NCBI GenBank assembly: GCA_949300375.1
Contig: CASGEB010000007.1
Span: forward strand, 7,439 to 71,438
Origin: an uncultured Pseudomonadota bacterium
GTDB taxonomy: Bacteria; Pseudomonadota; Alphaproteobacteria; RF32; CAG-239
Reading direction: 5' to 3'
Length of the DNA stretch: 64,000 nucleotides
Positions 4,252 to 13,434 of this stretch are shown in pieces. The notes beneath the pieces were generated by a model. It was given only the letters and a program-made list of their open reading frames with translations, made no database searches and was not told the DNA's origin. A program made the position numbers and the translations under genes. How positions within the stretch are numbered: position 1 is the first letter of the stretch; each line of letters starts with the position of its first letter.

Positions 4252-4327
4252 TGGTGGAGCTGAGGAGGATCGAACTCCCGACCTAATGATTGCGAACCAT
4301 TCGCTCTCCCAACTGAGCTACAGCCCC
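4252..4327 (-). tRNA. tRNA-Ala (anticodon CGC)
   Basis: Hand-folded 76-nt cloverleaf: GGGGCTG acceptor with G3:U70, GCTCAGTTGGGAGAGC D arm, anticodon loop TTCGCAA, GGTTCGATCC T arm (GTTCGAT loop), encoded CCA. Confidence 0.9.
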
Positions 4328-4472: not shown

Positions 4473-4534
<62 letters not shown>

Positions 4535-4548
<14 letters not shown>

Positions 4549-7812: not shown

Positions 7813-8247
7813 TTATTCTACGTCCCACGGGAAAACAATCCATTTGTCAGGCAGTTCCCTGGCAAAAATATCAACTTCTTCTTTGCCTTTTTCTTTGGCA
7901 TAAACCGTTACATATTTTCCCTGGGGAAATTGGCGGCGCATAACCCTGAAAGTTTGTCCGCTGTCTGCCAGATCGTCAATAATCAGCGTTTTTTCATCAA
8001 CCTTGCCCACGCGTTCCGGACAATCGACTTCATCAAGTTTTAAATGAGCTGAGCCGACATAAGTTGCGATATTAATCACGGCAGAATTGCGAATGTTCAG
8101 TTCATAGGCAATAATTCCGGCCGGCAGCAGGCCGCCGCGGCTGATGGCAACTAATTTGTCATAGTCTCCGCTTTGTCTGATTTTGGCGCATAAATTTTTT
8201 ACATCTTGGTGAAATTCTTCCCAGTTAAGATAAATCTTATCAGTCAT
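7813..8247 (-). CDS. gpt: xanthine-guanine phosphoribosyltransferase
   Basis: 144 aa. Colinear with E. coli Gpt as I recall it (VAISRGGLLPAGI..., PRPP motif LIIDDLADSG, C-terminal FPWD). Confidence 0.85.
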   Translation of the reverse strand: MTDKIYLNWEEFHQDVKNLCAKIRQSGDYDKLVAISRGGLLPAGIIAYELNIRNSAVINIATYVGSAHLKLDEVDCPERVGKVDEKTLIIDDLADSGQTFRVMRRQFPQGKYVTVYAKEKGKEEVDIFARELPDKWIVFPWDVE

Positions 8248-8257
8248 TAATTTTCTT

Positions 8258-8791
8258 TCAGTTATTTTCAGCTTTGAGTTTGTAAATATATTCGATTACA
8301 CGGGGATTATCCCATTCGGCAGAACCGCGAATCCGTCCGATTTCCTGCCCTTTTTTATTGAATAACACTGTATGAGGAGAGGTGAATATGCCGAAAGCCG
8401 AAGCCAATTTTCCGTCTTTATCGGTATAAAACGGCAAATCCGGCGCGTCATATTCTTTTAAAAAACGGCGCTGCTCGGCGGTATTTTTCCATTCACGCGA
8501 CGAAGAAACCATCAAAAGCGTAATACCGTTGTCTTTGGTCTGTTTGTAAAAAGTATTCAGACCTTCCAATTCGTTAATGCAAGGGCTGCATTCACGCGAC
8601 CAATTCATCAGCAAAACAAAATTTCCTTTAAAATCATCCATAACAACCGCTTTGCCGTCTGAGGCATAAAAAGGCACTTGCGGCGTTTCCCGCGGCTGGT
8701 CATAGATGTTTACGTTTCCATCCTTTTTGGCCAGGGCGGAAAAAGCAAAACACAGACTGAAAAGAAATATGATAGCCGTTTTTTTTATCAT
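8258..8791 (-). CDS. periplasmic thiol:disulfide oxidoreductase (TlpA/ResA-like thioredoxin fold)
   Basis: 177 aa. Signal peptide, then WSRECSPC CxxC motif in a redoxin-like context. Confidence 0.8.
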   Translation of the reverse strand: MIKKTAIIFLFSLCFAFSALAKKDGNVNIYDQPRETPQVPFYASDGKAVVMDDFKGNFVLLMNWSRECSPCINELEGLNTFYKQTKDNGITLLMVSSSREWKNTAEQRRFLKEYDAPDLPFYTDKDGKLASAFGIFTSPHTVLFNKKGQEIGRIRGSAEWDNPRVIEYIYKLKAENN

Positions 8792-8884
8792 TGCTTAATA
8801 ACTTAATTTTTACTTTTAATCTTTACTTTGTTTATAGTATATAATTATTCTCAATTTAAGTAAACAAGCAAAAGGTTTATAACC

Positions 8885-9016
8885 ATGAAAAACATATGCC
8901 GGCTCACGGTTTTGGCTGCTTTTGCGGTTGTGTTGGCGCTCAGCGCCTGTGGAAAGATGGCGCCGCCTTCCCCGGTTGAGGGAAGCGGATATCCCCATAC
9001 CTATCCGAAAAGATAG
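8885..9016 (+). CDS. 43-aa lipoprotein, hypothetical
   Basis: Own translation: MKNICRLTVLAAFAVVLALSACGKMAPPSPVEGSGYPHTYPKR, with lipobox LSAC. Below the ORF-track cut-off. Confidence 0.45.
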   Translation: MKNICRLTVLAAFAVVLALSACGKMAPPSPVEGSGYPHTYPKR

Positions 9017-9038
9017 TTTTTAATCAGGAGTCCTTAAA

Positions 9039-9725
9039 ATGATTGCCGAAGACGATTTTACCGAAGATATGATTCCGTATGTGGAATTTGCCGATAACGC
9101 CAATGAGCGAACGCCGTGCGTTTTGGTGCTGGACTGTTCCGGGTCAATGCGCGGCGAACCGATTAAACAGCTGAATGCCGGACTGAAAGCCCTTGAACGC
9201 GAGCTGAAAGACGATATTGACGCCAGTTCCCGCGTGCAGCTGCTAATTATCAAAGCCTTTGGCAAAGACGAGGCTGTTATTTCTTCCGACTGGACAGATG
9301 CCATGAATTTTGAGGCTCCGACAATGGAAGCCGGCGGACTCACGCCACTCGGCAAGGCAATGGATTTGGCCTTGCAAAAAATTGAAGAGCAAAAATGTCT
9401 GTATGACAGCTGCGGCATTACATCAAAACGGCCGTGGATTTTTCTTATCAGCGACGGAGAACCGACAGACTACGACTGGGAACAGGCGGCCGAACGCTGC
9501 CGTTATGCCCAGCAAAACAAAAAAGTGGTTATTCATGCCGTCGGAACTCAGGAAGCAAATTTGGAAAAGCTGGCAAAATTTTCGATTAATCCGCCCAAGC
9601 GTCTGACCGGTCTCAAATTTACCGAATTTTTCCTTTGGCTCAGCCGGAGCGTTTCCTGCATTTCCAAAGCAGCTCCCAATATTCCCGACCAGCTTGAGAA
9701 CACCGGCGACTGGGATGAAGAATAG
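9039..9725 (+). CDS. von Willebrand factor A (vWA) domain protein, TerY-like
   Basis: 228 aa. MIDAS motif VLDCSGSM (DxSxS), later T and D positions, Rossmann-like alternation. AGGAG SD 10 nt upstream. Confidence 0.85.
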   Translation: MIAEDDFTEDMIPYVEFADNANERTPCVLVLDCSGSMRGEPIKQLNAGLKALERELKDDIDASSRVQLLIIKAFGKDEAVISSDWTDAMNFEAPTMEAGGLTPLGKAMDLALQKIEEQKCLYDSCGITSKRPWIFLISDGEPTDYDWEQAAERCRYAQQNKKVVIHAVGTQEANLEKLAKFSINPPKRLTGLKFTEFFLWLSRSVSCISKAAPNIPDQLENTGDWDEE

Positions 9726-10458
9726 AAGAATCAAAGTTGTGGCTGCCAGCGTGAAAGGCCCGATGCATCACCACAAAAATCTGCCTTGTCAGGATTTTTT
9801 CAAATTCTGCCGCAAAGGACGGAACTTTGTGGCTGTTGTTTCTGACGGCGCAGGTTCTGCAAAATATGGCAAAATCGGCGCCAAAACGGTTTGCGAAACC
9901 CTCATCGACCATCTAAAAAACGCCCCGTCGAATTCTTTTAAAGAAACAGTGAAGAAGGCCATTGAAATAGCCCGAAACAAAGTTTGCCGCCACAGACTCA
10001 ACCAAAGCAAAAGCCTTGAACACATCAACGATTTTGCCGCCACGGTTGTCGGCGTCGTGCATGACGGCGAAAAAGGAAGCTTTTTTCATATCGGAGACGG
10101 GGCGGCTTTGGCTTTTAAGAATGGAGAGCCATCCTGTTTTGTGGCTTCGCCTCCAGAAAACGGCAGTTTTTCCTGCGAGACTTTTTTCTTTACCCAAAAC
10201 AACTGGGCTGCAAATTTGCGTTTTACCGAATTTTCCGGCCTGGATACGATTTTTTTAATGAGCGACGGCTTAACAAATTTTGCTTTTTCAAAAGATTTTA
10301 ACCGGATTGAAAACGGTTTTATTCTGCCGATACATGATTTTCTGCTGGCAGAAAAACCCGAAAAAAAAGCCGGACGGGCGTTGGCAAATACGCTGAATAA
10401 TGCGCAGGCACGCAAACTCAACCAGGATGACAAGACCCTGCTTTGGGCAAAATTATGA
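9715..10458 (+). CDS. PP2C-family Ser/Thr protein phosphatase
   Basis: VAVVSDGAGSAKYG, FFHIGDGAA and IFLMSDGLTNF are PP2C_2-type metal-binding motifs. ATG 9715 overlaps the vWA stop by 11 nt; the track starts at TTG 9694. Confidence 0.8.
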   Translation: MKNRRIKVVAASVKGPMHHHKNLPCQDFFKFCRKGRNFVAVVSDGAGSAKYGKIGAKTVCETLIDHLKNAPSNSFKETVKKAIEIARNKVCRHRLNQSKSLEHINDFAATVVGVVHDGEKGSFFHIGDGAALAFKNGEPSCFVASPPENGSFSCETFFFTQNNWAANLRFTEFSGLDTIFLMSDGLTNFAFSKDFNRIENGFILPIHDFLLAEKPEKKAGRALANTLNNAQARKLNQDDKTLLWAKL

Positions 10459-11927
10459 GGCTGCTGATGGAAAATACCGAAGAAAAAAAAGAATTTAATG
10501 CAATTTACGGCGACGGACATTTTGAACAAATCCGCCTTAAGGAAATGATTAACCGCGGCGGTGCGGCCGGAAAAATCTTCAGTATTGAAAACAACCCCCG
10601 TACCGTTGCAAAAATTTTTCACAAAAAGCAAAAAAGCGATACCAACCGGCAAAAACTGATTGCCATGCTGCAAAACAATCCGAATATCAAGCCGGTGGAA
10701 AAAAACGGCGTTGAATATGTGCAAATTGCCTGGCCGGAAGCGATTTTGGAAGATGAAAACGGTTTTTGCGTCGGTTATCTGATGCCGCTTATCAATATGA
10801 GCGAGGCGGTTTCGCTCGACCACCTGATGCAAAAAGCCATCCGGCGGAAACTTCATCTTTCCGAAAAATACGCCTACCGGATTTTTGCCGCCTATAACGT
10901 GGCTTCCATGGTCAATTCTCTTCATAAATGCGGGCATTATATTGTGGATCTTAAACCGTCAAACGTATCGGTTTACAAAGATACGATGATGGTGGCGATG
11001 GTCGACTGCGACGGTTTTTCCATCAAAGGCGAAAAAAACCGTTATCCGGCGGAATTTGTCAGCGAAGAATATATTTATCCGGAGGGAATGGAGCTTTCTT
11101 GTGAAGAAATGGGCGAAGAACAAGACAAATTTGCCCTGGCCGTTATAATTTTTAAGCTGTTAAACAACGGAATCCATCCTTATTCCGGCATTCCGAGAAA
11201 AAATGACGGCGAAATGATGACAATCCAGAACAGGATTGAAAAATACCACTATGCATACGGTTTGTGGCCGGACAGTTATCAGCAGCCTCACCCTTACAGC
11301 ATTCACGAATATTTTGACAAGAAAACGCTTGAGCTTTTTGAACGCGCTTTTACCAAAGGCGGCAACCGTCCCAGCGCCTATGAATGGCAGGAACATTTGT
11401 GGAAACTGATGCACAGCCTTAAAACCTGCAAAAAAGACCATAACCATGTCTATTTTACATCAAAAGGCTGTGGTTTGTGTATGGTTGAAGAAAAATTTTC
11501 CGTTGATATGAACGGCATAAAAAAACAAAAAGAAACACCGCAGACCGTCCGGGGAATGGCCATATCGGAATTGTCGGCCGAGAGACTGAAACAAAGCAAG
11601 GCCGAAAAGCTCATTGAAGACGAGAAAATCAAACGTATCACCTGGGTCGGTATTGCCGTTTATATGCTGTTTTTTACTTTTCTTTCCCAACTTTTAAAAC
11701 CGGCGGCCGAAACGGTTACAAATCTCGGTCTGGGAATCCAGGCCATTGTTACAACTTTTGTCATGATGGGAATTAATGCCTTTTTCCGCCGTTATAACTC
11801 CAAATTTCCGCTTTTGAAAAACCGCGCCCTGACGCAAATGTTGCAGGCATATGCCCTGCTTTGCATTGTTATAGCTCTGGTTTCCGTCAATAATCTGCCG
11901 CCCGGGCTCTTGGAACTGGCTCCTTAG
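10455..11927 (+). CDS. Ser/Thr protein kinase with C-terminal Cys/His cluster and three predicted TM helices
   Basis: Gly-rich loop GGAAGKIF, VAKIFH lysine, catalytic HYIVDLKPSNV, DCDGF in the DFG position. ATG 10455 overlaps the PP2C stop (ATGA). Confidence 0.85.
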   Translation: MRLLMENTEEKKEFNAIYGDGHFEQIRLKEMINRGGAAGKIFSIENNPRTVAKIFHKKQKSDTNRQKLIAMLQNNPNIKPVEKNGVEYVQIAWPEAILEDENGFCVGYLMPLINMSEAVSLDHLMQKAIRRKLHLSEKYAYRIFAAYNVASMVNSLHKCGHYIVDLKPSNVSVYKDTMMVAMVDCDGFSIKGEKNRYPAEFVSEEYIYPEGMELSCEEMGEEQDKFALAVIIFKLLNNGIHPYSGIPRKNDGEMMTIQNRIEKYHYAYGLWPDSYQQPHPYSIHEYFDKKTLELFERAFTKGGNRPSAYEWQEHLWKLMHSLKTCKKDHNHVYFTSKGCGLCMVEEKFSVDMNGIKKQKETPQTVRGMAISELSAERLKQSKAEKLIEDEKIKRITWVGIAVYMLFFTFLSQLLKPAAETVTNLGLGIQAIVTTFVMMGINAFFRRYNSKFPLLKNRALTQMLQAYALLCIVIALVSVNNLPPGLLELAP

Positions 11928-12045
11928 AATTTTCTAATACAAAAGTTGTATAAAAAAAATCCCGAACTATATAATTTTTTACTCAACAAATTGAAATTTT
12001 TGTTGTAGAGTATGCAGGTATTGGAATCTAGATAAGGATACGAAT

Positions 12046-13434
12046 TTGATTAAGCTTAAGCCTATTATGCTTTCAGGCAAAGAGGTTTTACCTTTGATTG
12101 AGGGCGGAAAGGGAATTAATGCCAGCGACGGACGCAGTTCCGGCGCTTGGGCGCATGAAAACTGCGTGGGAACATTTTCCGGCGTCAGCCCCGATTTTTA
12201 TGATAATACGGGCAACGTCATTATTGAAAAGTTTTTTAAGAAAAAAAGAGCCGAACGCCATGAGGAAATGGTTGAATATGCCATCAGAGGCGGCGTTGCC
12301 CAAGCTCAGGTTGCTCATGAAGTTTCTAACGGAAACGGGCGAATCCATATGAATATGCTTTGGGAACTGGCGGATTCCGAAAGAATACTGACCGGCGTTC
12401 TGGAAAGAGCCAAAGGTTTGGTACACGGCGTTACCTGTGGCGCCGGGCTGCCGTACCGGCTGGGCGAACTGGCTTCGCGCTTTGGCGTTTATTATTACCC
12501 GATTGTTTCTTCCGCACGCGCCTTTCAGGTTTTGTGGAAACGCGCTTATAACCGTTTTGCCGAATATCTCGGCGGCGTTGTTTATGAAGATCCGTGGCTG
12601 GCCGGCGGACATAACGGCTTGTCAAACGCTGAAGACCCTAACAAACCGGAAAGCCCGTATAACCGTCTGGTGGAGCTGCGGCGCCTGTTAAACGGTTTTG
12701 GTTTGCAGGAAACGCCGATTATTCTGGCCGGAGGCGTTTGGTCTTTAAGCGAATGGAAAGATTATATTGACAATCCGGATATCGGCAAAATTGCTTTTCA
12801 GTTCGGCACACGCCCGATGATTACCAAAGAAAGTCCGGTTTCCGACGCTTGGAAACGGGTGATGATGCAGGTTAAAAAAGGCGATGTCATTCTGCAAAAA
12901 TTTAGTCCGACCGGCTTTTTCTCTTCTGCCATCAAAAATACTTTTTTGGAAAAACTGATTGAACGCAAAAAAGGCGAGATTGCTTTTTCGGACGAGGCAA
13001 CGGAAGAATTTTCCCACCCGCTGAATATGACGGCGAACCGTTTGATTTTTATTCGTCCGGAAGATGCAGAAAAAGCAATGAACCAAATTAATGCCGGATT
13101 GACGGAAATCAAAGAAACTCCTGATAAAACCGTCGTCTTTATGACTCCGGAAGACTGGAAACAGATGAAACAAGACAGAGCCAACTGCGTGGGTTGTCTT
13201 TCTCAGTGTCAATTTTCGACCTGGTCGCAGGCCAAAGGTACGACCGGCCGTTTGCCGGATCCGCGTTCTTATTGCATACACAAGACGTTGTATGAGGTCG
13301 GACACGGCGGAAGCGTTAAAGACCATTTGTTGTTTGCCGGACACCAGGTTTACCGTTTTGCAACGGATCCCTTGTATCGAGACGGGATTCCATCAGTCAA
13401 AGAGCTGATTGAAAAAATAAAAAACGGCGAATAA
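12046..13434 (+). CDS. FMN-dependent TIM-barrel oxidoreductase, nitronate monooxygenase (NMO/NPD) family, long form
   Basis: 462 aa. PLIEGGKGI, GVTCGAGLP and ILAGGVWS resemble NMO-family FMN-binding segments, plus a C-terminal Cys-rich extension. Family assignment from motifs only. Start is either TTG 12046 or ATG 12067. Confidence 0.5.
   Translation: MIKLKPIMLSGKEVLPLIEGGKGINASDGRSSGAWAHENCVGTFSGVSPDFYDNTGNVIIEKFFKKKRAERHEEMVEYAIRGGVAQAQVAHEVSNGNGRIHMNMLWELADSERILTGVLERAKGLVHGVTCGAGLPYRLGELASRFGVYYYPIVSSARAFQVLWKRAYNRFAEYLGGVVYEDPWLAGGHNGLSNAEDPNKPESPYNRLVELRRLLNGFGLQETPIILAGGVWSLSEWKDYIDNPDIGKIAFQFGTRPMITKESPVSDAWKRVMMQVKKGDVILQKFSPTGFFSSAIKNTFLEKLIERKKGEIAFSDEATEEFSHPLNMTANRLIFIRPEDAEKAMNQINAGLTEIKETPDKTVVFMTPEDWKQMKQDRANCVGCLSQCQFSTWSQAKGTTGRLPDPRSYCIHKTLYEVGHGGSVKDHLLFAGHQVYRFATDPLYRDGIPSVKELIEKIKNGE

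What the first reader, a model, noticed from the sequence alone, without database searches (positions are those of the whole stretch)
9039..11927. Translationally coupled vWA / PP2C phosphatase / Ser-Thr kinase triad (TerY-P-type architecture)
**Seen**
- Three co-oriented genes with overlapping junctions. The PP2C ATG at 9715 overlaps the vWA stop by 11 nt. The kinase ATG overlaps the PP2C stop as ATGA at 10455-10458.
- The vWA protein has an intact MIDAS DxSxS (DCSGSM).
- The phosphatase has PP2C metal-binding Asp motifs.
- The kinase has a Gly loop, the VAKIF lysine, HYIVDLKPSN and DCDGF.

**Established (from memory)**
- This vWA(TerY)-PP2C-STK trio was defined by comparative genomics as the TerY-phosphorylation triad (Anantharaman, Iyer and Aravind 2012).
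- A TerY-P system was among those reported to protect against phage by Gao et al. 2020.

**Inference**
- This is an accessory signalling or defence module embedded between housekeeping genes (tlpA-like, nadE). It sits in what otherwise looks like a compact genome.
Basis: partly seen in the sequence, partly recalled or inferred. Interest (0 to 1): 0.65.

Follow-up and report, generated by a model that had tools for sequence, protein, structure and literature searches.

The report
Core-genome vWA, phosphatase, kinase operon
Three overlapping genes for a metal-binding vWA protein, a PP2C phosphatase and a membrane-anchored Ser/Thr kinase are real and belong to the known TerY-P / E. coli YegL-PphC-YegI triad family, but in this gut alphaproteobacterial lineage they form a fixed, vertically inherited, very strongly conserved operon rather than a mobile defence island.

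Summary
vWA (9039-9725), PP2C (9715-10458) and the Ser/Thr kinase (10455-11927) are intact and co-oriented, with 11-nt and 4-nt overlaps and all the cited motifs.

All three proteins are homologues of E. coli K-12 YegL/PphC/YegI. They are more distant homologues of the TerY3/PP2C/kinase trio in IncHI2 tellurite-resistance clusters. The kinase has the kinase + Zn-ribbon core typical of TerY-P kinases, followed by three C-terminal membrane helices. The "TerY-P-type architecture" reading is therefore supported.

The "accessory/defence module" inference is not supported:
- The trio sits at the same place (tlpA divergent upstream) in about 72 species-level genomes of gut and rumen Alphaproteobacteria.
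- It is also there in all 79 evaluable metagenome loci.
- Its divergence tracks that of neighbouring housekeeping genes.
- Its G+C matches the flanks.
- It has no defence neighbours.
- It fails the PADLOC TerY-P models, although the archetypal triads fail them too.
- The vWA protein is as conserved as ribosomal protein S1.

Most likely function: a housekeeping phospho-switch acting on the TerY-type vWA protein. This is a new member of a known kind and of modest interest.

The parts
8885..9016 (+). 43-aa lipoprotein ORF. It has a signal peptide and an LSAC lipobox; the mature peptide is CGKMAPPSPVEGSGYPHTYPKR. It is LptM-like and is the first gene of the operon, ending 22 nt before the vWA start.
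   Evidence: Translation is. The ORF lies directly upstream of vWA (gap -1 to 68 nt) in 71 of 72 lineage loci. vWA follows it in all 79 evaluable metagenome loci found by anchoring on the lipoprotein itself. The NCBIfam LptM match is E = 1.1e-4, 22.2 bits, below the 27.7-bit cut-off. In L068 a homologue precedes lysA, which I recall (not checked here) as the usual lptM position.
9039..9725 (+). TerY/YegL-type single-domain vWA protein, 228 aa. The MIDAS residues are D32, S34, S36, T102 and D139. The C-terminal motif is W200-L-S202-R-S204-VSCI-S209.
   Evidence: Pfam VWA E = 1.6e-7. Identity to E. coli YegL is 42%, E = 7e-49, and 28-32% to IncHI2 TerY1-3. The AF2 model (pLDDT 77) matches vWA domains in the PDB. 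In 71 lineage sequences, 52% of positions are invariant. The residues invariant across the superfamily sample are listed.
9715..10458 (+). PP2C-family Ser/Thr phosphatase, 247 aa. Its start overlaps the vWA stop by 11 nt.
   Evidence: Pfam PP2C_2 E = 1.5e-39. Full-length alignment to E. coli PphC gives 24% identity, E = 3e-12. The DGAGS, GDGA, SDG and DDKT metal-binding motifs are conserved in 69 lineage sequences. Junction overlaps are conserved.
10455..11927 (+). Hanks-type Ser/Thr kinase, 490 aa, with an ATGA overlap onto the PP2C stop. Architecture: kinase domain, then a CHCC Zn-ribbon, a linker helix and three C-terminal hydrophobic helices.
   Evidence: Pfam Pkinase E = 2e-11. Identity to YegI is 28%, E = 1e-31, running through the Zn-ribbon. 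The AF2 model's best PDB matches are the PknA and PknB kinase domains. A profile search finds 954 clusters (at 50% identity) with E <= 1e-30; the 150 listed mostly align over profile positions ~10-350 and their lengths vary widely.
10482..11414 (+). Kinase catalytic domain, about aa 10-320. Key residues: G35-G36-A-A-G39, K53, D165-L-K167-P-S-N170, D184-C-D186-G-F-S189, and P209-E210.
   Evidence: These residues are invariant in 30 homologues and in 67 lineage sequences. YegI's equivalent DSD motif and activation-loop serine are required for its activity (bioRxiv 10.1101/819920).
11427..11480 (+). Zn-ribbon-like knuckle: C325-x5-H331-x7-C339-G-L-C342.
   Evidence: C325, H331, C339 and C342 are invariant. 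The segment aligns with YegI C...H...CPWC. The same pattern occurs in distant triad kinases and in the ter-cluster kinase. TerY-P kinases are described as STK-ZnR fusions in PMC11090510.
11628..11900 (+). C-terminal membrane anchor with three hydrophobic segments, about aa 392-412, 424-445 and 460-482.
   Evidence: The Kyte-Doolittle scan is. AF2 predicts helices 375-408, 410-424, 426-447 and 457-479. E. coli YegI was shown experimentally to be an inner-membrane protein with two TM segments.
8258..8791 (-). TlpA/ResA-like periplasmic thiol:disulfide oxidoreductase. This is an invariant divergent neighbour and is listed as context, not as a demonstrated component.
   Evidence: Pfam Redoxin E = 3e-15 and NCBIfam TlpA E = 4e-18, the latter below its cut-off. 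It lies upstream of the operon in every lineage locus and in 65 of 65 metagenome loci with enough upstream sequence.

Best explanation
**What it is.** This is a chromosomal member of the TerY-P / YegL-PphC-YegI triad family. It is transcribed as one unit behind a small LptM-like lipoprotein gene.

**Proposed mechanism (inferred).**
1. The kinase is held at the inner membrane by its three C-terminal helices, with the kinase domain and Zn-ribbon in the cytoplasm.
2. It activates by autophosphorylation in the DCDGFS activation segment, as shown for YegI.
3. It then phosphorylates the cytoplasmic TerY-type vWA protein, most likely on the invariant serines at the end of its last helix and tail (S202, S204, S209).
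4. The PP2C resets both the kinase and the vWA protein.
5. Phosphorylation next to the C-terminal helix is proposed to switch the MIDAS site between binding and non-binding states for a still unknown partner.

**Role in this lineage.** The module is a vertically inherited core function, most likely housekeeping or stress signalling at the membrane. It is not a mobile anti-phage island.

**Shown here:** gene structure, family membership, intact catalytic and MIDAS residues, membrane-anchor architecture, fixed synteny and very strong conservation.

**Inferred:** the substrate, the allosteric switch and the physiological role.
For: **Family membership**
- BLASTP against YegL, PphC and YegI gives 42%, 24% and 28% identity, with E = 7e-49, 3e-12 and 1e-31.
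- Against the IncHI2 ter cluster, identity is 28-32% to TerY1-3, 23% to the PP2C and 26% to the kinase.
- Gene order is the same in Azospirillum, Pseudomonas, Betaproteobacteria, Actinomycetota, Vulcanimicrobiota and E. coli. In the Caldilinea locus (L079) only vWA and PP2C were detected, on a short contig.

**Enzymes probably active**
- Catalytic residues are invariant.
- YegI autophosphorylates and PphC dephosphorylates it in vitro.

**Membrane anchoring**
- See; YegI is experimentally membrane-bound.

**vWA as the regulated element**
- The MIDAS residues and the W200 / S-T202 / S204 / S209 motif are invariant in 18 sequences spanning several phyla and the plasmid TerY proteins.
- The motif lies at the end of helix 194-206, where the model becomes disordered.
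- In Sulfolobus, all phosphorylation sites identified so far in the vWA protein ArnB lie in its C-terminus (PMC6509490). ArnAB is among the structural matches.

**Core, not accessory**
- The trio and the tlpA neighbour are present in all lineage loci. vWA follows the lipoprotein anchor in 79 of 79 evaluable metagenome loci, and all 48 loci with enough downstream sequence carry the full trio.
- Identity to the window co-varies with NMO and tlpA (rho 0.69-0.84).
- Window versus L002: vWA 90%, rpsA 90%, cmk 72%, gpt 66%.
- G+C is 0.43-0.45, the same as the flanks.
- No PADLOC hit occurs in ten neighbouring proteins.
- Only 2 of 2.9 million viral contigs match, and one of those is a mis-binned fragment of this locus.
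Against: - No substrate, signal or phenotype is known for any member of the YegL/PphC/YegI branch. The E. coli genes are barely expressed under laboratory conditions.
- Phosphorylation of the vWA serines is an inference from conservation. These serines could be purely structural.
- 'Core' status rests on loci found through the vWA or through the adjacent lipoprotein. Lineage genomes that lack both would not have been sampled.
- Other TerY-P triads do sit in mobile or defence contexts: L074 next to IS3 fragments and a KAP NTPase, a provirus-borne triad in L171, CoCoNuT/McrBC systems, and a related system that protects against T7-like phages. A fixed defence gene is therefore not excluded.
Confidence: 0.6

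Rival explanations
1. The trio is an anti-phage TerY-P defence system, as reported by Gao et al. 2020. Infection would be sensed and the kinase-phosphatase-vWA switch would trigger an abortive or protective response. Here the system would simply have become fixed in the chromosome.
For: - The three-gene architecture matches. A TerY-P system protects against T7-like phages (summarised in PMC7699616).
- TerY-P triads are integrated into CoCoNuT/McrBC systems (PMC11090510).
- Distant relatives lie in mobile contexts.
- The kinase weakly matches the PADLOC defence-kinase model PD-T4-6 (E = 1e-6).
Against: - PADLOC TerY gives E = 0.054, and there are no TerY-P-specific hits for the phosphatase or kinase. 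The model is narrow and also misses the archetypal triads.
- The tested system's kinase has a C-terminal OB fold, whereas this one has a membrane anchor.
- The position is invariant and divergence tracks neighbouring housekeeping genes, with the vWA as conserved as ribosomal protein S1. I would expect defence genes to be patchy and fast-evolving (general knowledge, not tested here).
- There are no defence neighbours.
Confidence: 0.2
2. The trio is a metal or tellurite-type stress module. The MIDAS of the TerY-like protein would sense a metal or oxyanion, and the kinase and phosphatase would relay the signal, as proposed for Ter-associated triads.
For: - The vWA is homologous to the TerY proteins of tellurite-resistance clusters.
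- The MIDAS is complete.
- TerY-P was hypothesised to be a metal-sensing phosphorylation switch (PMC11090510 citing Anantharaman 2012).
Against: - No TerZ/A/B/C/D/E, TerX, TerW or associated biosynthetic genes lie next to the trio. The neighbours are tlpA, gpt, an NMO-like gene and nadE.
- The window proteins are closer to YegL/PphC/YegI than to the ter-cluster proteins (versus 72).
- A MIDAS usually uses its metal to bind a protein ligand rather than to sense metal (general knowledge).
Confidence: 0.08
3. The trio is part of an envelope-biogenesis unit with its invariant partners, the LptM-like lipoprotein and the divergent TlpA-like oxidoreductase. The membrane kinase would report or regulate periplasmic oxidative folding or LPS-translocon maturation, with the vWA protein as the cytoplasmic output.
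For: - The lipoprotein gene ends -1 to 68 nt before vWA in 71 of 72 lineage loci. vWA follows it in 79 of 79 metagenome loci.
- tlpA is always divergent upstream.
- The kinase is membrane-anchored.
Against: - In L068 the lipoprotein homologue precedes lysA, which I recall (not checked here) as the usual lptM position, and it is about 2.5 kb from the trio. The tight adjacency elsewhere may therefore be inherited synteny after gene loss.
- Distant triads and E. coli lack both neighbours.
- The predicted periplasmic loops of the kinase are very short.
- The LptM match is below the curated cut-off.
Confidence: 0.12

Closest known systems
E. coli K-12 yegL-pphC(yegK)-[yegJ]-yegI
   Same: - The three proteins and the gene order are the same: vWA, then PP2C, then kinase. 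Identities are 42%, 24% and 28%.
- The kinase has the same kinase + CHCC Zn-ribbon core followed by TM segments.
- YegI is a membrane kinase that autophosphorylates, and PphC dephosphorylates it.
- The physiological role is unknown in both.
   Different: - YegI is 648 aa, with two TM segments and a long cytoplasmic C-terminal region. The related long kinases L082, L084 and L085 show coiled-coil and HhH-like sequence there. The window kinase is 490 aa and ends in three TM helices.
- The catalytic loop here is canonical (DLKPSN), whereas YegI lacks several conserved residues.
- E. coli has no lptM-like or tlpA neighbour, and K-12 has yegJ inserted.
- The E. coli locus varies between strains, whereas this one is invariant across a whole lineage.
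Archetypal TerY-P triad of tellurite-resistance clusters (IncHI2 plasmids: TerY3, PP2C, kinase)
   Same: - It has a TerY-type vWA with a MIDAS and the C-terminal W-x-S/T-x-S-x4-S motif.
- A PP2C and a kinase with a post-kinase Zn-ribbon lie adjacent, in the same order.
   Different: - Similarity is only 23-32%.
- The ter proteins are larger: the PP2C is 545 aa, the kinase is 499 aa with a soluble C-terminal domain, and TerY3 carries a TerY-C domain.
- They are embedded among terZ, terW, terX and biosynthetic genes on conjugative plasmids. None of those genes is present here.
TerY-P anti-phage system (Gao et al. 2020; PADLOC/DefenseFinder 'TerY-P')
   Same: It has the same three-component logic: vWA, PP2C and a Ser/Thr kinase.
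   Different: - The tested kinase carries a C-terminal OB fold, not a Zn-ribbon plus membrane anchor.
- PADLOC's TerY model does not recognise the window protein (E = 0.054).
- The context here is a conserved housekeeping region, not a defence island.
Sulfolobus ArnA/ArnB with kinases ArnC/ArnD and phosphatase PP2A
   Same: - A cytoplasmic vWA protein has its C-terminal region phosphorylated by Hanks-type kinases and reset by a phosphatase, which switches a protein-protein interaction (PMC6509490, PMC12852372).
- ArnAB is among the structural matches of the vWA model.
   Different: - The system is archaeal, with no detectable sequence relationship beyond the vWA fold.
- It uses an FHA-ZnR partner and a PP2A-type phosphatase.
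- Its genes are not arranged as a three-gene operon.
- It is an analogy for the mechanism only.

Membership tests
TerY-P triad (comparative-genomic definition: TerY-like vWA + PP2C + Ser/Thr kinase-ZnR in one neighbourhood) | A TerY-type vWA domain with an intact MIDAS | tested here: met
   D32-x-S34-x-S36, T102 and D139 are present and invariant across the sample. Identity is 28-32% to plasmid TerY1-3 (E down to 4e-22) and 42% to YegL. IMG names lineage homologues 'uncharacterized protein YegL'. The shared C-terminal W-x-S/T-x-S-x4-S motif is shown.
TerY-P triad (comparative-genomic definition) | An adjacent PP2C-family phosphatase in the same operon | tested here: met
   Pfam PP2C_2 E = 1.5e-39. 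The start overlaps the vWA stop by 11 nt. The protein is homologous to PphC and to the ter-cluster PP2C.
TerY-P triad (comparative-genomic definition) | An adjacent Ser/Thr kinase carrying a C-terminal zinc ribbon | tested here: met
   Pfam Pkinase E = 2e-11. The Foldseek top hits are PknA and PknB. C325, H331, C339 and C342 are invariant and align with the YegI knuckle. Zinc binding itself was not tested.
TerY-P triad (comparative-genomic definition) | The three genes are conserved as a unit in unrelated genomes | tested here: met
   The order is the same in about 72 lineage genomes and in E. coli, Azospirillum, Pseudomonas, Betaproteobacteria, Actinomycetota, Vulcanimicrobiota and a provirus contig. 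In the Caldilinea locus (L079) only vWA and PP2C were detected, on a short contig.
Experimentally validated TerY-P anti-phage system (Gao 2020, as modelled in PADLOC-DB 2.0) | The proteins match the system's profile HMMs | tested here: not met
   TerY gives E = 0.054 at 11 bits. There is no TerY-P phosphatase or kinase hit. Caveat: the same models also miss E. coli YegL/PphC/YegI and the IncHI2 ter-cluster triad. DefenseFinder was not available.
Experimentally validated TerY-P anti-phage system (Gao 2020) | The kinase is fused to a C-terminal OB fold (as described in PMC11090510) | tested here: not met
   After the Zn-ribbon, the C-terminus is a linker helix followed by three hydrophobic helices.
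Experimentally validated TerY-P anti-phage system (Gao 2020) | Protects against phage | not testable with these tools
   This needs heterologous expression and a phage challenge.
Experimentally validated TerY-P anti-phage system (Gao 2020) | Located in a defence island or mobile context | tested here: not met
   Ten flanking proteins have no PADLOC hit. The flanks are rpsA, cmk, gpt, tlpA, an NMO-like gene and nadE. G+C equals that of the surroundings.
Ter (tellurite-resistance) stress-response cluster | Linkage to TerD-family genes (terZ/A/D/E/X), terB, terC or terW | tested here: not met
   None of these lies among the neighbours. Compare the IncHI2 cluster. Only the 64-kb window was examined, not the whole genome.
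YegL-PphC-YegI branch (E. coli-type chromosomal triad) | Full-length homology of all three proteins and a membrane-anchored kinase | tested here: met
   Homology is shown. YegI membrane localisation is from bioRxiv 10.1101/819920. The window kinase lacks YegI's long post-TM cytoplasmic region.
LptM (for the upstream 43-aa lipoprotein) | A match to the curated LptM model above its cut-off | tested here: inconclusive
   NF047847 gives E = 1.1e-4 at 22.2 bits, against a 27.7-bit cut-off. Pfam LptM_cons gives E = 0.6. Supporting synteny: in L068 a homologue lies immediately upstream of lysA.

The most novel reading that the evidence does not exclude
A TerY-P triad has been domesticated into an indispensable housekeeping switch. 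In a whole clade of small-genome gut and rumen Alphaproteobacteria, the module is known elsewhere from defence islands, ter clusters and plasmids. Here it would be a core membrane-signalling unit, co-transcribed with an LptM-like lipoprotein and paired with TlpA. Its vWA protein, as constrained as ribosomal protein S1, would be a central hub whose MIDAS-dependent partner binding is toggled by phosphorylation. That would give the long-enigmatic YegL/PphC/YegI family a tractable physiological role.
Probability: 0.3. Interest if true: 0.55.

Novelty: new member of a known kind. Interest (0 to 1): 0.3.

Why it matters
- The TerY-P / YegL-PphC-YegI triad is widespread. A profile of the kinase finds 954 clusters (at 50% identity) with E <= 1e-30. 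Apart from one anti-phage report for a divergent subtype, no physiological function is known.
- A lineage where the triad is invariant, syntenic and as conserved as a ribosomal protein argues that at least one branch has a housekeeping role. It also cautions against labelling every vWA-PP2C-kinase trio as a defence system.
- The analysis nominates specific residues for testing: S202, S204 and S209 of the vWA protein, and S189 of the kinase activation segment.
- It has practical value for annotation. NCBI records name the kinase and the lipoprotein 'hypothetical protein'.

Tried and rejected
- **PADLOC scans.** I scanned the three proteins and added controls with E. coli YegL/PphC/YegI and the IncHI2 ter-cluster triad. 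The TerY model recognises none of them, so the negative result excludes only the narrow validated subfamily.
- **PDB sequence searches.** Profiles of the vWA and the kinase found nothing. Fold searches gave only generic vWA and Hanks-kinase matches.
- **Primary papers.** Gao 2020 (PMC7985843) and Anantharaman 2012 (PMC4104200) are not held. I used descriptions in PMC11090510, PMC7699616 and PMC4978471 instead.
- **Phage carriage.** The two high-identity 'Bacteriophage sp.' records and one IMG/VR contig are bacterial fragments of this same locus. I rejected them as evidence of mobility.
- **The lipoprotein as a new fourth component.** I weakened this idea after finding its homologue upstream of lysA in L068 and a sub-threshold LptM match.
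- **Promoter and terminator scan of 8200-12300.** Counts were only modestly above the shuffled expectation (10 vs 6.0 ± 2.5 and 10 vs 6.8 ± 2.8). The one candidate promoter, at 8809-8838, is unproven.
- **Apparent exceptions.** Two metagenome loci seemed to have the lipoprotein without vWA (L108, L158). They turned out to be an inverted or chimeric short contig and a frameshifted vWA.
- **Compositional anomaly.** I looked for one and found none.

Full report
**1. Observation**

The three ORFs are as described:

| Gene | Coordinates (+ strand) | Length | Junction |
|---|---|---|---|
| vWA | 9039-9725 | 228 aa | stop TAG at 9723-9725 |
| PP2C | 9715-10458 | 247 aa | ATG overlaps the vWA stop by 11 nt |
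| Ser/Thr kinase | 10455-11927 | 490 aa | ATGA overlap with the PP2C TGA |

- An AGGAG lies 9-13 nt before the vWA ATG. The two internal starts have only weak purine runs, which fits translational coupling.
- Public gene calls contain exactly the 247-aa and 490-aa products.
- Pfam confirms VWA (1.6e-7), PP2C_2 (1.5e-39) and Pkinase (2e-11).

**2. Origin of the window and neighbouring genes**

- The window is about 97% identical at protein level to contig CALXUP010000001.1 of an uncultured gut alphaproteobacterial MAG (L006).
- Related genomes carry titles such as 'Proteobacteria bacterium CAG:495', 'Acetobacter sp. 46_36' and gut or rumen 'Alphaproteobacteria bacterium' MAGs.
- From memory, this is the GTDB RF32 / CAG-239 group. 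I did not test that placement.
- One relative has the locus on a 1.886-Mb contig.
- The neighbours are housekeeping genes: rsmE-like, cmk, rpsA, two tRNA-Ala genes, a DnaJ/CbpA-like gene, gpt, a TlpA-like oxidoreductase, then the operon, an NMO/FabK-like oxidoreductase, nadE, a porin and xthA.
- G+C of the trio is 0.43-0.45, the same as the rest of the window.
- Ten flanking proteins have no PADLOC hit.

**3.

- A 43-aa ORF at 8885-9016 (+) encodes a lipoprotein with an LSAC lipobox. Its mature peptide is CGKMAPPSPVEGSGYPHTYPKR, and it ends 22 nt before the vWA start.
- The same mini-gene, with an almost invariant ...EGSGYPHxYP... tail, lies -1 to 68 nt upstream of vWA in 71 of 72 lineage loci.
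- It scores just below the curated LptM model: 22.2 bits against a 27.7-bit cut-off, E = 1e-4.
- In the most divergent lineage member (L068), a homologue (CGKRGPIEPYSHGNYQKYTYPAE) lies directly upstream of lysA. From memory, that is the usual lptM position; I did not check it here. A 409-aa ORF and the trio follow.
- I therefore read it as the lineage's LptM-like lipoprotein. It has ended up as the first gene of the operon, probably through loss or relocation of lysA. It is not a new dedicated component.

**4. Family assignment**

| Comparison | vWA | PP2C | Kinase |
|---|---|---|---|
| E. coli K-12 YegL / PphC / YegI | 42% (7e-49) | 24% (3e-12, full length) | 28% (1e-31) |
| IncHI2 ter cluster | 28-32% (TerY1-3) | 23% | 26% |

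- E. coli keeps the same gene order. The kinase alignment runs through the post-kinase C...H...CxxC knuckle.
- The IncHI2 cluster is terW, TerY1, TerX, TerY2, TerY3(TerY-C), PP2C, kinase.
- Invariant residues across 18 vWA sequences from several phyla plus plasmid TerY1-3 are the MIDAS (D32, S34, S36, T/S102, D139) and the C-terminal motif W200-x-S/T202-x-S204-x4-S209.
- PMC11090510 describes TerY-P as a TerY-like vWA, a PP2C and an STK fused to a C-terminal zinc ribbon. It describes the Gao 2020 defence version as carrying an OB fold instead.
- The window kinase has the Zn-ribbon (C325, H331, C339, C342, all invariant). A linker helix and three hydrophobic helices follow.
- A profile of the kinase finds 954 clusters (at 50% identity) with E <= 1e-30. 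In the 150 listed, the aligned part is mostly profile positions ~10-350, i.e. kinase plus Zn-ribbon, and protein lengths vary widely.
- Distant triads carry either short kinases (421-433 aa, one TM) or long YegI-like kinases (640-653 aa). The long kinases have coiled-coil and HhH-like sequence after the TM.
- Membership of the TerY-P / YegLKI triad family is therefore met on every sequence feature I could test.

**5. Defence or accessory?**

- PADLOC gives only TerY E = 0.054 for the vWA protein, a candidate family (PDC-M21C) for the phosphatase, and generic defence-kinase models (PD-T4-6) for the kinase.
- The controls matter. E. coli YegL/PphC/YegI and even the IncHI2 ter-cluster triad are also missed. 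The PADLOC negative therefore excludes only the narrow validated subfamily.

The stronger argument is evolutionary:

- Among 80 genome loci retrieved with a vWA alignment, about 72 belong to the lineage. Every one that extends far enough has vWA, PP2C and kinase in order, with tlpA divergent upstream. NMO follows in 56.
- The junctions mostly overlap or abut.
- I also anchored on the lipoprotein rather than on the trio. That retrieved 80 metagenome loci:
  - vWA follows the lipoprotein in 79 of 79 evaluable loci. Two apparent exceptions are a frameshift and a chimeric short contig.
  - All 48 loci with at least 3 kb downstream have the full trio.
  - All 65 loci with enough upstream sequence have tlpA.
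- Identity to the window co-varies among vWA, PP2C, kinase, NMO and tlpA (Spearman 0.69-0.84). This indicates vertical descent.

| Protein | Median identity to the window |
|---|---|
| vWA | 85% |
| NMO-like | 78% |
| Kinase | 59% |
| gpt | 57% |
| PP2C | 55% |
| tlpA | 48% |

- Against one relative (L002), vWA is 90% identical, the same as ribosomal protein S1 (90%) and well above cmk (72%).
- In the vWA protein, 52% of positions are invariant in 71 sequences. The figure is 17-19% for the two enzymes.
- 'Phage' database hits at 85-91% identity are mis-binned fragments of this very locus.

By contrast, more distant triads do occur in mobile settings:

- next to IS3 fragments and a KAP NTPase in a marine MAG;
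- in a 95.6-kb provirus contig;
- on plasmids;
- in H. pylori islands and CoCoNuT systems.

The family is mobile in general, but this branch is fixed.

**6. Mechanism**

Shown here or in the literature:

- The catalytic residues of both enzymes and the MIDAS are intact and conserved.
- The kinase model matches the PknA and PknB kinase domains.
- The homologous YegI is an active inner-membrane kinase that autophosphorylates on activation-loop serine. It needs its DSD motif, which is DCD here, followed by the invariant S189.
- PphC dephosphorylates YegI.

Inferred:

- The cytoplasmic vWA protein is the regulated substrate or adaptor.
- Its invariant serines lie at the end of the last helix (194-206) and at the start of a low-confidence tail.
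- From general knowledge of integrin I domains, movement of the C-terminal helix is allosterically coupled to MIDAS affinity. Phosphorylation there is therefore a plausible switch.
- A precedent exists in Sulfolobus. All phosphorylation sites identified so far in the vWA protein ArnB lie in its C-terminus, and phosphorylation by the kinase ArnC tightens the ArnA-ArnB complex (PMC6509490, PMC12852372). ArnAB is among the structural matches.

The signal, the MIDAS ligand and the physiological output remain unknown.

**7. Verdict**

- The architectural assignment (TerY-P type) is supported.
- The 'accessory/defence' reading is not supported for this lineage, although defence is not excluded.
- This is a new member of a known kind. 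The noteworthy twist is core-genome fixation and ribosomal-protein-level conservation of the vWA component.
- Interest is modest (0.3).

Noticed in passing
window 8885-9016 (+): This is an unannotated-type 43-aa lipoprotein gene. It is LptM-like and sub-threshold, with an almost invariant EGSGYPHxYP tail, and lies 22 nt upstream of vWA. It precedes vWA in nearly every relative. NCBI records call it 'hypothetical' or 'unknown'.
   Followed up: yes
window 12046-13434 (+): This 462-aa NMO/FabK-like oxidoreductase has a Cys-rich C-terminal part (CVGCLSQC...). It is 62-98% identical across the lineage and follows the kinase in 56 loci. Its Pfam NMO match is only weak (E = 1.8e-7), and its function is not resolved.
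   Followed up: partly
window 8258-8791 (-): This TlpA/ResA-like thiol:disulfide oxidoreductase is always divergent from the lipoprotein-trio operon, although it evolves fast (29-94% identity). Whether it is functionally linked to the LptM-like gene or to the trio is unknown.
   Followed up: partly
window 4252-4327 (-) and 4473-4548 (+): Two divergently oriented tRNA-Ala genes (anticodons CGC and GGC) lie 145 nt apart. They fall within a segment (about 4.2-7.8 kb) that is absent between rpsA and gpt in the relative L002.
   Followed up: no
GenBank MT836238.1 (L086), MT839721.1; IMGVR_UViG_3300024268_003428 (L170): L086 and L170, deposited or predicted as bacteriophage sequences, carry tlpA next to the trio genes and so are bacterial fragments of this locus. 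MT839721.1 (4 kb, vWA 91% identical) probably is too, but I did not check it.
   Followed up: yes
L074 7739-8926 and 13029-14879: In a marine alphaproteobacterial MAG, the homologous trio (vWA 57% identical) is flanked by IS3-type transposase fragments and a KAP-family P-loop NTPase. This is a mobile or defence-like context, unlike the window.
   Followed up: partly
L171 6001-8468 (IMGVR_UViG_2928826531_000001): A 95.6-kb predicted viral or proviral contig carries a complete distant triad, with 44%, 27% and 31% identity.
   Followed up: no
L082, L084, L085 kinases (about aa 440-650): The YegI-type long kinases have a cytoplasmic coiled-coil after the TM segment. They also carry helix-hairpin-helix-like repeats (e.g. 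GIGPSRVATLSSFGVDTAKDV), which suggests nucleic-acid binding. This region is absent from the window kinase.
   Followed up: no
PADLOC-DB TerY model PDLC02224: The model fails to recognise E. coli YegL and the IncHI2 TerY1-3 proteins. Profile-based defence callers therefore cover only a narrow slice of TerY-P triads.
   Followed up: yes
window 10455-11927 and its cluster members: NCBI annotates this kinase as 'hypothetical protein' in the related MAGs. Most relatives are called 4 aa shorter (486 aa, apparently starting at the equivalent of M5).
   Followed up: partly
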